64,000 nucleotides of DNA from Promethearchaeota archaeon (lineage in GTDB: Archaea > Asgardarchaeota > Lokiarchaeia > Sigyniarchaeales > SOKP01), in assembly GCA_016839555.1 (NCBI GenBank), contig JAEOUA010000008.1, forward strand, positions 96,001-160,000, written 5' to 3'. How positions within the stretch are numbered: position 1 is the first letter of the stretch; the number at the start of each line of letters is the position of its first letter. Below the pieces are notes generated by a model, which was not told the origin of the DNA, made no database searches, and saw only the letters and a list, made by a program, of their open reading frames with translations. Below are positions 33,623 to 57,358 of this stretch, one piece after another. The position numbers and the translations under genes were made by a program.

Positions 33623-34836
33623 GTGATTAAGATTAACGATTCAGACAAATTTACTACTAAATATTATATTCGAGCTTCATTTGTTATAAAGGGGGTCGTA
33701 GAAAAGAGCGATATTGTGGGTGCTATATTCGGACAAAGCTGAAAAGATCTCCTTTTCTCGTCTAAACAGAAGGTCTTCTTTTAGATCTTGACTTACGAGA
33801 ACTTCAAAAATCTGGAAGAATAGGAAGAATTGAAGTCAATAATGAGACAAAAGAAGGAAAATCGAAAGGCACCATAATAATTCCAAGCTCTTTAACCCGA
33901 AAAGAAACTGCTTTACTAGCGGCAACGATAGAAACGGTATCGAGAGTAGGTCCTTGCGAAGCAGAAATCACCTTGCAAGAAATAAAGGATGTAAGAGAAA
34001 AAAAAAGAAAGGAAATTATTGAAAGGGCAGCAGAATTATTAAAAGAATGGGACCAGAAATCATTGGATGCCAGTGAGATTGAGGAAAAGATTGATACAGA
34101 TATTAGATTGGGAGAAATCATAACTTGGGGACCTGAGAACTTACCAGCAGGTCCCGATATTGAGGAAGAGGAGGAATTGATTATAGTAGAAGGACGTGCA
34201 GATGTATTAAATCTCTTACGAATTGGGATTAAAAATACAATAGCAGTTCAAGGAACCAGCATTCCTAAATCTATTATTGAACTCGCAAAAAATAAAAGGG
34301 TAACTGTTTTTCTCGATGGAGATCGTGGTGGAGATTTAATCCTGAAGGAATTGAGTCAATTAATAGATATAGATCATATCGCAAGAGCACCAGAAGGGTA
34401 TGAAGTCGAAGAACTTACTAGAAAACAATTAATTAAATATCTTCAGAAAAAAAGGCCAGCCTCATCTTATAAAATAGAAGAAGAAGTAGAGAAAGAAGAT
34501 GAAAATAAATATTCTTCCAAAGAAAAAGTATTGATTAGCTTTTTAGACAAATTGAAAGTAAAAAACAAAGAAATTATCATTGAAAAAATTAAAAATATTG
34601 AGAGCGGAACTGCGGTGGGCTATGATAAAAAATTACATCCACTATTTACTATTCCAGTAAGTGAATTATATAATTCAATTAATAAACATAGCAATACGAA
34701 ATATTTAATTTTAGATGGAATATTAACAGAGAGGCTTTTAAATCAATTACGTACCATGGAAATTAAATTTATAGCATGCAAGAATAAAGAAGCAGACTTA
34801 AAAGTACCTAATAATATTTCTGTTTATTATTTTTAA
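33623..34836 (+). CDS. dnaG: Archaeal DnaG (Toprim; exosome-associated), join(33623..33736,33766..34836), about 394 aa after removal of a 29-nt intron
   Basis: Exon 1 reads TTKYYIRASFVIKGVVEKSDIVGAIFGQ, exon 2 reads TEGLLLDLDLRELQKSGRIGRIEV...ETALLAATIETVSRVGPC...IIVEGRADV...FLDGDRGG; the ORF track caught only 33973..34836. Confidence 0.93.
33737..33765 (+). other. Candidate 29-nt bulge-helix-bulge-type intron in dnaG mRNA
   Basis: Central 4-bp helix GGAC(33731-34)/GUCU(33760-63), each strand followed by AAA; inner hairpin GAAAAG/CUUUUC; cuts after the second bulge nucleotide rejoin GGA CAA|ACA GAA. Confidence 0.8.
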
Positions 34837-56644: not shown

Positions 56645-57358
56645 ATGAAGTCAAAGTTGTCCCATCTCTCGAATGAAGTAAATGCAATAATCGGAATTGG
56701 AAATAAAGAATATAGTCAAGGACATCTTGAGGGAGCAGTCAATTATTGGGAAAGGGCGCTAAGCTTATTAAGTAATGCTAAGGTAAGAATTAAGGGGTTA
56801 AATGTATATGCGGCGGAACATATAAATAAAGCCCAAAGAAGATTAAGAATTAATATAAGAAATGTAACTAAATCCATTAAAGAAGAGATTAGGGTTAAAA
56901 ATCTGCTGGATGCCCCCACCGAAATTTATTGCCAAGCATGTGGATGCCTTAATGACTCGGATAGAACGATATGTAAGCAATGCGGAACCCCTTTGAGAAC
57001 CATTGGCTTCTCTTCAACTGACCAGCAAGATGATCTATTAGAAAAATGCGAATCTCCTATTGAAAGACAATTTTTTACTTCCGCGAGGAAGCTAATACCC
57101 AATTTAGAACCCCAAGAATGGATTGGAAAATATCGCGTAGACTTTGCCCTCAAAGATAAAAAGGTAGTGGTGGAATTAGATGGGCATTCCTATCATAAAA
57201 CAAAAGAACAGCGGCAAAATGATGCAGAACGGCAACGACACCTTCAAAAAGAAGGCTATACAGTCATTCGATTTACTGGAAGCGAAATCAATAAGGATCT
57301 TAGTGGGTGCATCTCTGAAGTGTTAGATATCTTGGACAAAAAAAGTAATTCTAAATAG
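56645..57358 (+). CDS. TPR-like helices + zinc ribbon + DUF559 (Vsr-like/PD-(D/E)xK) endonuclease domain
   Basis: CQACG..CKQCG; ESPIE; Q..IGKYRVDFA..VVVELDGHSYH..DAERQRHL..GYTVIRFTGSEI. Confidence 0.88.
   Translation: MKSKLSHLSNEVNAIIGIGNKEYSQGHLEGAVNYWERALSLLSNAKVRIKGLNVYAAEHINKAQRRLRINIRNVTKSIKEEIRVKNLLDAPTEIYCQACGCLNDSDRTICKQCGTPLRTIGFSSTDQQDDLLEKCESPIERQFFTSARKLIPNLEPQEWIGKYRVDFALKDKKVVVELDGHSYHKTKEQRQNDAERQRHLQKEGYTVIRFTGSEINKDLSGCISEVLDILDKKSNSK

What the first reader, a model, noticed from the sequence alone, without database searches (positions are those of the whole stretch)
33722..33774. Candidate bulge-helix-bulge (tRNA-type) intron in the dnaG mRNA of an Asgard archaeon
Seen: the conserved archaeal DnaG N-terminal motif VGAIFGQ-TEGLL is split between CAA (33734-36) and ACA (33766-68) by 29 nt, AGCTGAAAAGATCTCCTTTTCTCGTCTAA. 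The insert closes both relevant frames: TGA at 33740 in the exon-1 frame and TAA at 33763 in the exon-2 frame. The RNA can fold with a 4-bp central helix GGAC/GUCU, AAA 3' of each helix strand, a G33738-C33759 pair plus a GAAAAG/CUUUUC hairpin on the intron side, and a relaxed exon-exon stem (UUC 33728-30 with GAA 33769-71). Known: archaeal splicing endonuclease EndA cuts BHB motifs after the second nucleotide of each 3-nt bulge and RtcB ligates; the classic archaeal mRNA example is crenarchaeal cbf5. Those cut rules give 33736|33737 and 33765|33766, restoring an in-frame DnaG of about 394 aa. Inference: an enzymatically spliced mRNA intron in an Asgard housekeeping gene, which gene callers would annotate as an N-truncated dnaG. 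I do not know of a described example.
Basis: partly seen in the sequence, partly recalled or inferred. Interest (0 to 1): 0.95.

Follow-up and report, generated by a model that had tools for sequence, protein, structure and literature searches.

The report
tRNA-type intron splitting Asgard dnaG
The only dnaG gene of this Loki-type Asgard archaeon is interrupted by a 29-base insert shaped like an archaeal tRNA intron, so its mRNA almost certainly has to be cut and rejoined by the tRNA-splicing enzymes, which the papers I could search confirm for only one other archaeal protein gene (cbf5).

Summary
Observation confirmed. A 29-nt insert (33737-33765) splits dnaG inside GAIFGQ|TEGLL, shifts the frame and gives an immediate stop. 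The archaeal DnaG profile runs without a gap across the junction: exon 1 ends at profile position 26 and exon 2 starts at 27.

- Same-site inserts of 29-43 nt occur in 55 of 400 genomes of the phylum; a reversed-pattern control gave 0.
- All 48 distinct versions break the frame, and their lengths fall in all three phases.
- A 4-bp helix between exon GGNC and the intron's 3' end is paired in 144 of 144 cells. The wobble base of the Gly codon covaries with its intron partner (C-G, A-U, U-G, G-C, G-U).
- The published cut rule, after the second nucleotide of each bulge, gives exactly the in-frame junction.
- Exon 1 is under the same purifying selection as exon 2.
- The genome encodes two EndA subunits and RtcB.

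The motif is relaxed on the 3' side. The intron has been lost precisely several times. Other genes of this genome (rnhB, AMP phosphorylase) carry inserts of the same geometry.

This scan has noted the dnaG intron before in other Asgard genomes. I found no paper describing it.

The parts
33623..33736 (+). dnaG exon 1 (GTG start, 38 codons, ends ...VGAIFGQ)
   Evidence: ORF and translation. Residues 13-38 match NF003108 DnaG profile positions 1-26. pN/pS is 0.15 among 48 intron-bearing relatives.
33737..33765 (+). 29-nt intron (AGCUGAAAAGAUCUCCUUUUCUCGUCUAA)
   Evidence: Homologous same-site inserts of 29-43 nt occur in relatives. It is single-copy in the genome. Because AAA flanks both ends, removing any 29 nt that start at 33735-33738 gives the same product.
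33766..34836 (+). dnaG exon 2 (356 codons plus stop; TEGLLLDLDLR..., Toprim domain)
   Evidence: Translation. NF003108 profile positions 27-281. Toprim domains in Pfam. The first in-frame ATG/GTG/TTG is at 33973.
33731..33734 (+). central helix H, 5' strand (GGAC; the Gly codon plus the C of the Gln codon)
   Evidence: Pairs with 33760-33763. Paired in 144 of 144 cells across 36 distinct sequences, with 5 pair types at the third pair. It is the only helix that RNAalifold predicts.
33760..33763 (+). central helix H, 3' strand (GUCU, inside the intron)
33735..33737 (+). 5' bulge AA|A; predicted cut 33736|33737
   Evidence: The rule 'between the second and third bulge residue' is quoted from PMC2738675. 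In relatives the bulge is AA|N or AG|N.
33764..33766 (+). 3' bulge AA|A; predicted cut 33765|33766. With C33767 and A33768 it forms a 5-nt bulge if the outer stem is UUC/GAA.
   Evidence: The base following the bulge is always C and never pairs with Y33730.
33738..33759 (+). intron hairpin h': G33738-C33759, a 2x1 internal loop, then GAAAAG 33741-46 / CUUUUC 33752-57 with loop AUCUC
   Evidence: In most relatives the stem next to the bulge is GAU/AUC; the three inner pairs are paired in 91.7% of cells.
33728..33730 (+). possible outer exon-exon stem h, 5' strand (UUC, Phe codon)
   Evidence: Pairs with GAA 33769-71. Paired in 100% of relatives, but fixed by coding, so it is uninformative. C is enriched at the Phe wobble in intron-bearing genes: 25 of 50 against 4 of 54.
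33769..33771 (+). possible outer exon-exon stem h, 3' strand (GAA, Glu codon)
33740..33742 (+). TGA that ends the unspliced exon-1 frame after 39 codons
   Evidence: All 48 distinct relatives' inserts also give an in-frame stop.

Best explanation
The 29 nt at 33737-33765 are an archaeal bulge-helix-bulge (tRNA-type) intron in the dnaG pre-mRNA.

In the transcript, exon bases GGAC (33731-34) pair with intron bases GUCU (33760-63). This places an AAA bulge 3' of each strand. The intron's own hairpin closes the 5' bulge, and a short exon-exon stem (UUC/GAA) loosely closes the 3' side.

The heteromeric splicing endonuclease EndA cuts after the second nucleotide of each bulge (33736|33737 and 33765|33766). 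RtcB joins the exons to ...GGA CAA|ACA GAA..., giving a 394-aa DnaG with an intact GAIFGQTEGLL motif. Unspliced mRNA yields only a 39-aa peptide.

Shown here:
- the insert, the frame break and the exact profile junction;
- conservation of the insert and covariation of the helix;
- selection on exon 1;
- presence of the enzymes in the genome.

Inferred:
- that cleavage and ligation actually occur, and by these enzymes.

The intron looks old (at least family level), has been lost precisely several times and is dispensable. It is therefore more likely a tolerated passenger than a required regulator.
For: 1. Profile continuity. Exon 1 ends at NF003108 profile position 26 and exon 2 starts at position 27.
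2. Single copy. One dnaG in the genome, and no second copy of the insert.
3. Recurrence. Same-site inserts in 18 of 30 relatives, in 33 of 78 named genome records, and in 55 of 400 genomes of the phylum with 0 control hits. By family: f1 51/134, f3 1/1, f33 2/2.
4. Frame. There are 48 distinct versions, 29-43 nt long, in all three phases (28/17/3). All 48 give an in-frame stop, so no single frameshift could read them.
5. Central helix. Paired in 144 of 144 cells. The pair between the Gly wobble base and the intron base is C-G 21, A-U 6, U-G 5, G-C 2, G-U 2. In total 97.5% of cells pair, against 24-60% when the partner is slid by 1-3 columns, and 0 of 500 shuffles reach the observed covariation score. 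RNAalifold independently predicts exactly this helix.
6. Cut rule. The published rule, between the 2nd and 3rd bulge residue (PMC2738675), applied to that helix gives the in-frame GQ|TEG junction in every sequence.
7. Selection. Exon 1 pN/pS is 0.15 and exon 2 is 0.13, at pS 0.71.
8. Start codon. Exon 2 has no ATG/GTG/TTG for 69 codons.
9. Enzymes. Two EndA-family genes are present, one full-length like the Aeropyrum heterotetramer chain 3p1z_B (E 5e-40), plus one RtcB. Asgard EndA is reported as the (alpha-beta)2 type with the loop linked to broad specificity (PMC5829648).
10. Intron-less relatives carry exactly the predicted spliced sequence. The DnaG tree needs at least 12 state changes, 6 of them forced by well-supported branches.
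11. Two other genes of the same genome obey the same geometry and cut rule: rnhB with 28 nt and AMP phosphorylase with 31 nt.
Against: - No RNA evidence for this organism.
- The motif is not canonical. The base after the 3' bulge (C33767) never pairs with Y33730 in any relative, so the 3' cut sits in a 5-nt bulge or loop. The outer stem shows no covariation because both strands are fixed by coding.
- In this window the helix next to the 5' bulge is a single G-C pair followed by a 2x1 internal loop.
- The single-sequence MFE does not contain the BHB, and its z-score is 0.34. The BHB part alone is only -4 to -5 kcal/mol.
- The related sequences are not independent, so shuffle statistics overstate support.
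Confidence: 0.88

Rival explanations
1. Translational recoding: ribosomes bypass the 29 nt (as in T4 gene 60) or shift frame, so the mRNA is never spliced.
For: A stop codon lies one codon after the take-off region and a hairpin follows it. This superficially resembles gene 60.
Against: - Insert lengths of 29-43 nt fall in all three phases, and each insert contains an in-frame stop.
- There is no matching take-off and landing codon: CAA or CAG before the insert, UAA, UAG or UUA before ACN.
- The Gly wobble base is complementary to its intron partner, not identical to it (A with U, G with C, C with G). That is what an RNA helix predicts, not re-pairing of a peptidyl-tRNA.
Confidence: 0.03
2. 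The insert is removed from the RNA, but not by EndA and RtcB (another endonuclease or ligase, or an unknown pathway).
For: The 3' side departs from the canonical motif. No enzyme assay exists.
Against: The one conserved, covarying structure is the 4-bp helix with bulges 3' of each strand, which is the EndA recognition geometry. The EndA cut rule gives the right junction everywhere. Heteromeric EndA is reported to accept relaxed motifs (PMC5829648, PMC2738675).
Confidence: 0.05
3. A broken or split gene. Either dnaG is a decaying pseudogene or an N-truncated protein is made, or the two pieces are translated separately and associate.
For: Read literally, the DNA gives a 39-aa ORF and, from TTG 33973, a 287-aa ORF.
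Against: - It is the only dnaG in a 92%-complete genome.
- Exon 1 and the start-less first 69 codons of exon 2 are under strong purifying selection in 48 distinct intron-bearing genes.
- The interruption is conserved across genera rather than accompanied by other lesions.
- Exon 2 has no start codon at its conserved beginning.
Confidence: 0.02
4. An assembly or sequencing artefact in this MAG.
For: The Logan contigs of the likely source run did not bridge 33624-33785, so I could not confirm the insert in reads.
Against: Homologous inserts lie at the identical site in more than 50 independently assembled genomes from many studies. They have lineage-specific sequences and compensatory changes.
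Confidence: 0.01

Closest known systems
BHB intron in the cbf5 (pseudouridine synthase) pre-mRNA of Crenarchaeota (Watanabe 2002; Yoshinari 2006; Yokobori 2009, PMC2738675)
   Same: - A short intron inside a protein-coding sequence.
- A relaxed BHB motif.
- Predicted cuts between the 2nd and 3rd bulge residues that restore the frame.
- A host with a heteromeric EndA.
- Patchy distribution with gains and losses among relatives.
   Different: - A different gene (dnaG) and a different lineage (Loki-type Asgard, not TACK).
- cbf5 splicing was shown by cDNA and in vitro cleavage; here it is inferred.
- In this genome dnaG is not alone: rnhB and AMP phosphorylase show the same geometry.
Archaeal tRNA (and rRNA) BHB introns, including non-canonical HBh'-type motifs (Marck and Grosjean 2003, as cited in PMC5829648)
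   Same: - The same geometry: a 4-bp helix with a bulge 3' of each strand.
- The same size range. ARAGORN finds tRNA introns of 8-43 nt in this genome.
- The same presumed enzymes.
   Different: The host RNA is an mRNA. Half of the central helix is made of codons (Gly-Gln), so the exon side is constrained by coding and only its wobble base is free to covary.
Unconventional HAC1/XBP1 mRNA splicing in eukaryotes (Ire1 cleavage; ligation by Trl1 in yeast, RtcB in animals)
   Same: Non-spliceosomal, protein-enzyme splicing of an mRNA. A short intron causes a frame change, and ligation is of the tRNA-ligase type (RtcB splices HAC1 in vivo: Tanaka et al. 2011, cited in PMC5829648).
   Different: The endonuclease is Ire1, which acts on two stem-loops, not EndA on a BHB. 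That system is regulated by stress; no regulation is shown here. I claim no homology of the introns.
Programmed translational bypassing (T4 gene 60)
   Same: A short untranslated gap in a coding sequence, with a stop and a hairpin at its start.
   Different: It needs matched take-off and landing codons and a fixed gap. Here the codons do not match, the gap length varies and the pairing is complementary.

Membership tests
Archaeal BHB intron (EndA/RtcB substrate) | Central helix of 4 base pairs between the two cleavage sites | tested here: met
   GGAC 33731-34 pairs with GUCU 33760-63. All 144 cells are paired in 36 distinct sequences, with five pair types at pair 3. RNAalifold predicts the same helix.
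Archaeal BHB intron (EndA/RtcB substrate) | 3-nt bulge holding the 5' splice site, flanked by H and an intron helix h' | tested here: met
   The bulge is AA|A (AA|N or AG|N in relatives). h' is GAU/AUC in most relatives, with the three inner pairs paired in 91.7% of cells. In this window h' is weaker: one G-C pair, a 2x1 loop, then a 6-bp hairpin.
Archaeal BHB intron (EndA/RtcB substrate) | 3-nt bulge holding the 3' splice site, flanked by H and an exon-exon helix h | tested here: inconclusive
   AA|A follows H. The next base, C, never pairs with Y33730. A UUY/GAR stem can form two bases further on, which makes a 5-nt bulge. It pairs in 100% of sequences, but both strands are fixed by coding. 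This fits the relaxed HBh' class rather than the strict hBHBh' motif.
Archaeal BHB intron (EndA/RtcB substrate) | Cuts after the 2nd nucleotide of each bulge give a functional product | tested here: met
   The rule is taken from PMC2738675. The product joins DnaG profile positions 26 and 27. The junction is in frame in all 48 distinct intron-bearing genes.
Archaeal BHB intron (EndA/RtcB substrate) | Splicing endonuclease and RtcB ligase encoded by the host | tested here: met
   PF01974 matches two genes (104 and 73 bits) and PF01139 matches one (564 bits) in the same genome. The closest solved structures are crenarchaeal EndA chains.
Archaeal BHB intron (EndA/RtcB substrate) | Spliced RNA and excised intron observed; cleavage by EndA in vitro | not testable with these tools
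   No RNA run is listed for this DNA, and the spliced junction is absent from metagenome contigs. Enzyme assays are bench work.
Programmed translational bypass or frameshift | Matched take-off and landing codons, or a constant frame shift | tested here: not met
   CAA or CAG stands before the insert and UAA, UAG or UUA before ACN. Insert lengths fall in all three phases, each with a stop inside.
Repeated mobile element (MITE-like insertion) | Several related copies in the genome | tested here: not met
   blastn-short of the 29 nt finds only itself, apart from chance matches of 14 nt or less.

The most novel reading that the evidence does not exclude
The dnaG intron is one visible member of a genome-wide set. 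In this Loki-type Asgard lineage, splicing of mRNAs by the tRNA-splicing endonuclease and RtcB would be a routine step of gene expression, affecting many housekeeping genes. The introns would persist for long periods and be repeatedly and precisely lost. That would amount to an enzyme-based intron-exon gene structure in the closest prokaryotic relatives of eukaryotes.
Probability: 0.55. Interest if true: 0.92.

Novelty: new member of a known kind. Interest (0 to 1): 0.8.

Why it matters
In the papers I could search, protein-coding BHB introns are confirmed for one gene, cbf5 of Crenarchaeota (PMC2738675). This finding adds a second gene family, in Asgard archaea, with unusually clean comparative support.

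- **Annotation.** It means dnaG, and other genes in these genomes, may be mis-annotated as truncated or frameshifted. That would distort gene content, completeness estimates and phylogenomic marker sets for Asgard MAGs.
- **A test case.** It is a tractable way to ask how far the tRNA-splicing machinery acts on mRNAs in the lineage nearest to eukaryotes, where RtcB-type mRNA splicing (XBP1) also exists.
- **Intron turnover.** The many precise losses offer a natural system for studying intron turnover without a spliceosome.

Tried and rejected
- **RNA evidence.** No RNA holder was listed for this stretch. An exact 40-nt spliced junction and a degenerate genus-level junction both found nothing in metagenome contigs.
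- **DNA read support.** The Logan contigs of four runs did not bridge 33624-33785, so they neither confirm nor deny the insert.
- **Single-sequence folding.** The MFE does not contain the BHB. I rejected this as a criterion, because a BHB-compatible fold is 0.3 kcal/mol from the MFE.
- **Genome-wide screen.** My structure-plus-ORF screen for BHB introns gave no excess over register-shifted decoys (for example 300 loci against 255-350). It cannot count introns. It did list dnaG, AMP phosphorylase and candidates in a porB-like and a deacetylase-like gene.
- **Canonical outer helix.** A helix starting directly after the 3-nt 3' bulge is rejected, because Y33730 and C33767 never pair.
- **Selection on the outer stem.** Independent-pair tests for codon bias were underpowered (median p 0.2-0.6).
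- **Literature.** Six searches found no report of dnaG or Asgard mRNA BHB introns. A 2026 preprint on Asgard tRNA introns mentions neither mRNA nor dnaG.

Full report
**What is in the sequence**

On the + strand an ORF starting at GTG 33623 reads ...KGVVEKSDIVGAIFGQ and then runs into AGC-TGA (stop at 33740-42). After a TAA at 33763-65, a different frame opens at 33766. It reads TEGLLLDLDLRELQKSGRIGRIEV... for 356 codons to 34836. The 29 nt between them are 33737-33765.

NCBIfam's archaeal DnaG model NF003108 aligns exon 1 residues 13-38 to profile positions 1-26 and exon 2 residues 1-252 to positions 27-281. The two pieces are therefore exactly adjacent parts of one protein. Exon 2 carries the Toprim domain.

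This is the only dnaG in the 3.74-Mb, 92%-complete genome. The first ATG/GTG/TTG in the exon-2 frame is 69 codons downstream, at 33973.

**Whose genome**

The closest records are titled Promethearchaeota or Promethearchaeia MAGs. In NCBI's taxonomy that is the phylum within the kingdom Promethearchaeati, which is the current name of the Asgard archaea (my knowledge). The genome is 29.6% G+C.

**Comparative evidence**

- In 30 dnaG loci from relatives, 18 have an insert at exactly the same place, between the Gln and Thr codons. The other 12 read GQTEG without interruption.
- Among 78 named genome records, 33 have the insert.
- A pattern search over 400 genomes of the phylum found 55 with an insert of 20-50 nt between the two motif halves. 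The reversed-pattern control found none. By family the hits were f1 51/134, f3 1/1 and a distant family f33 2/2, whose 32-nt insert has an unrelated sequence.
- The 48 distinct versions are 29-43 nt long and fall in all three phases. Every one puts a stop in the unspliced frame.
- Exon 1 is under the same purifying selection as exon 2 in these genes (pN/pS 0.15 and 0.13, with synonymous sites near saturation).

Together these exclude an artefact, a pseudogene and any single frameshift.

**Structure**

I aligned 36 distinct sequences (A1).

- Exon bases GGNC pair with the four intron bases that precede the terminal AA in 144 of 144 cells. GGNC is the Gly codon plus the first base of the Gln codon.
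- The pair formed by the freely varying Gly wobble base is C-G 21, A-U 6, U-G 5, G-C 2 and G-U 2.
- Sliding the 3' partner by 1-3 columns drops pairing from 97.5% to 24-60%.
- RNAalifold, given no hint, predicts exactly this helix and nothing else.
- Each helix strand is followed by a 3-nt purine-rich bulge: AA|N or AG|N on the 5' side, and AA|A on the 3' side in nearly all sequences.
- Next to the 5' bulge most relatives have a GAU/AUC stem leading into a hairpin. In this window that stem is reduced to G33738-C33759, then a 2x1 loop and the 6-bp GAAAAG/CUUUUC hairpin.
- The 3' side is relaxed. The base after the bulge never pairs with the base before the helix, and an exon-exon stem UUY/GAR can form only two bases further on. 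That stem is always pairable but is fixed by coding, so it says little.
- Intron-bearing genes more often have C at the Phe wobble (25 of 50 against 4 of 54) and U at the exon-2 Gly wobble (39 of 50 against 20 of 54). Both would strengthen the outer stem, but tests on independent pairs are underpowered.

In the usual nomenclature this is an HBh'-like relaxed motif.

**Cut sites**

The rule documented for cbf5 is cleavage between the second and third residue of each bulge (PMC2738675). Applied to the covarying helix, it gives 33736|33737 and 33765|33766. In every relative it gives the in-frame GQ|TEG junction. The helix is defined by covariation and the junction by protein homology, so their agreement is an independent test.

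**Machinery**

The genome encodes two EndA-family proteins of 198 and 208 aa.

- The 198-aa protein aligns over its full length to the Aeropyrum heterotetramer chain 3p1z_B (E 5e-40). By my reading of its sequence it keeps the catalytic His and Lys.
- The 208-aa protein is more divergent and lacks that His.
- There is one RtcB.

Asgard EndAs are reported to be (alpha-beta)2 enzymes with the loop associated with broad substrate range (PMC5829648). ARAGORN finds only 28 tRNA genes, 17 of them with introns of 8-43 nt. This fits heavy use of the pathway.

**Evolution**

On a tree of 104 distinct DnaG proteins, 50 of them with the intron, the intron state needs at least 12 changes; 6 are forced by well-supported branches. 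The f1 introns share sequence (AGAUAA...AUCGGCUAA), so the simplest history is one old gain and repeated precise losses. Intron-less genes nested among intron-bearing ones carry exactly the predicted spliced sequence. The intron has no other copy in this genome.

**Rivals**

- **Bypassing or frameshifting** fails on variable length and phase, unmatched codons and complementary rather than identical covariation.
- **Separate polypeptides** fails on the missing start codon and the selection on the start-less first 69 codons of exon 2.
- **Another nuclease** cannot be excluded without an assay, but nothing calls for it.

**Limits**

No RNA data were available. The BHB is thermodynamically marginal on its own. 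My genome-wide screen could not count further introns.

Earlier notes of this scan report the same dnaG intron in at least 33 other Asgard genomes. In two relatives they report RNA reads with the exact spliced junction. I could not re-test those claims and do not count them as evidence.

I did re-read two other interrupted genes of this genome. rnhB (28 nt, L144:100-127) and AMP phosphorylase (31 nt, L145:99-129) have a 4/4-paired central helix and 3-nt bulges, and joining at the rule-predicted bonds gives continuous conserved motifs.

**Verdict**

This is a real feature: almost certainly an EndA/RtcB-spliced mRNA intron (confidence 0.88). It is a new member of a known kind, whose only confirmed precedent in the literature I searched is cbf5.

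Noticed in passing
L144:100-127 (G000 contig C12, + strand): rnhB (RNase HII) is split inside DEAGR|GP by 28 nt with BHB geometry: H AGGG/CCCT, bulges AGA and AAA. Joining at the rule-predicted bonds gives MRNFLICGLDEAGRGPVLGPM... in one frame.
   Followed up: partly
L145:99-129 (G000 contig C12, + strand): The AMP phosphorylase-like gene is split inside DKHST|GGVPGNK by 31 nt: H UAGU/GCUA, bulges ACA and AAA, and a perfectly paired stem next to the 5' bulge. The joined frame is continuous.
   Followed up: partly
G000 contig C6 79408-79438 (+), and contig C10 minus strand (reverse-complement coordinates 56849-56878): Two more candidates came out of my screen. One is a porB-like gene (...AFMNTGIQ|SGGTPPY..., 31 nt, with a long inverted-repeat stem). 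The other is a deacetylase-like gene (...DFDLHTG|GNIN..., 30 nt). Neither was checked by homology.
   Followed up: no
one search matches G398:C16:7720-7780 and G399:C87:7468-7528 (no loci kept): A distant family of the same phylum has a 32-nt insert at the same GQ|TEG site with an unrelated sequence: H GGCC/GGUU, inner stem CCGA/UCGG. This is either a very old intron or an independent gain at the same site.
   Followed up: partly
whole genome G000: ARAGORN finds only 28 tRNA genes in 3.74 Mb, 17 of them with introns of 8-43 nt. Many tRNA genes are probably hidden by non-canonical or multiple introns.
   Followed up: no
window 33728-33730 and 33772-33774, compared across L001-L143: Codon choice next to the intron differs from that of intron-less genes. 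Phe is UUC in 25 of 50 against 4 of 54, and the exon-2 Gly is GGU in 39 of 50 against 20 of 54. Both changes would strengthen an outer exon-exon stem. The difference is not significant on independent pairs.
   Followed up: partly
L131/L036, L133/L040, L043/L061: In pairs where one close relative has lost the intron, the last 90 nt of exon 1 are more diverged (73-81% identity) than the first 300 nt of exon 2 (86-92%). This could be ordinary N-terminal variability, or loss by recombination with a foreign intron-less allele.
   Followed up: no
G017:C378:952-1257 (inside L024): In one relative the C-terminal part of dnaG matches in a separate frame piece with one TGA inside. This may be another interruption or a sequencing error.
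   Followed up: no
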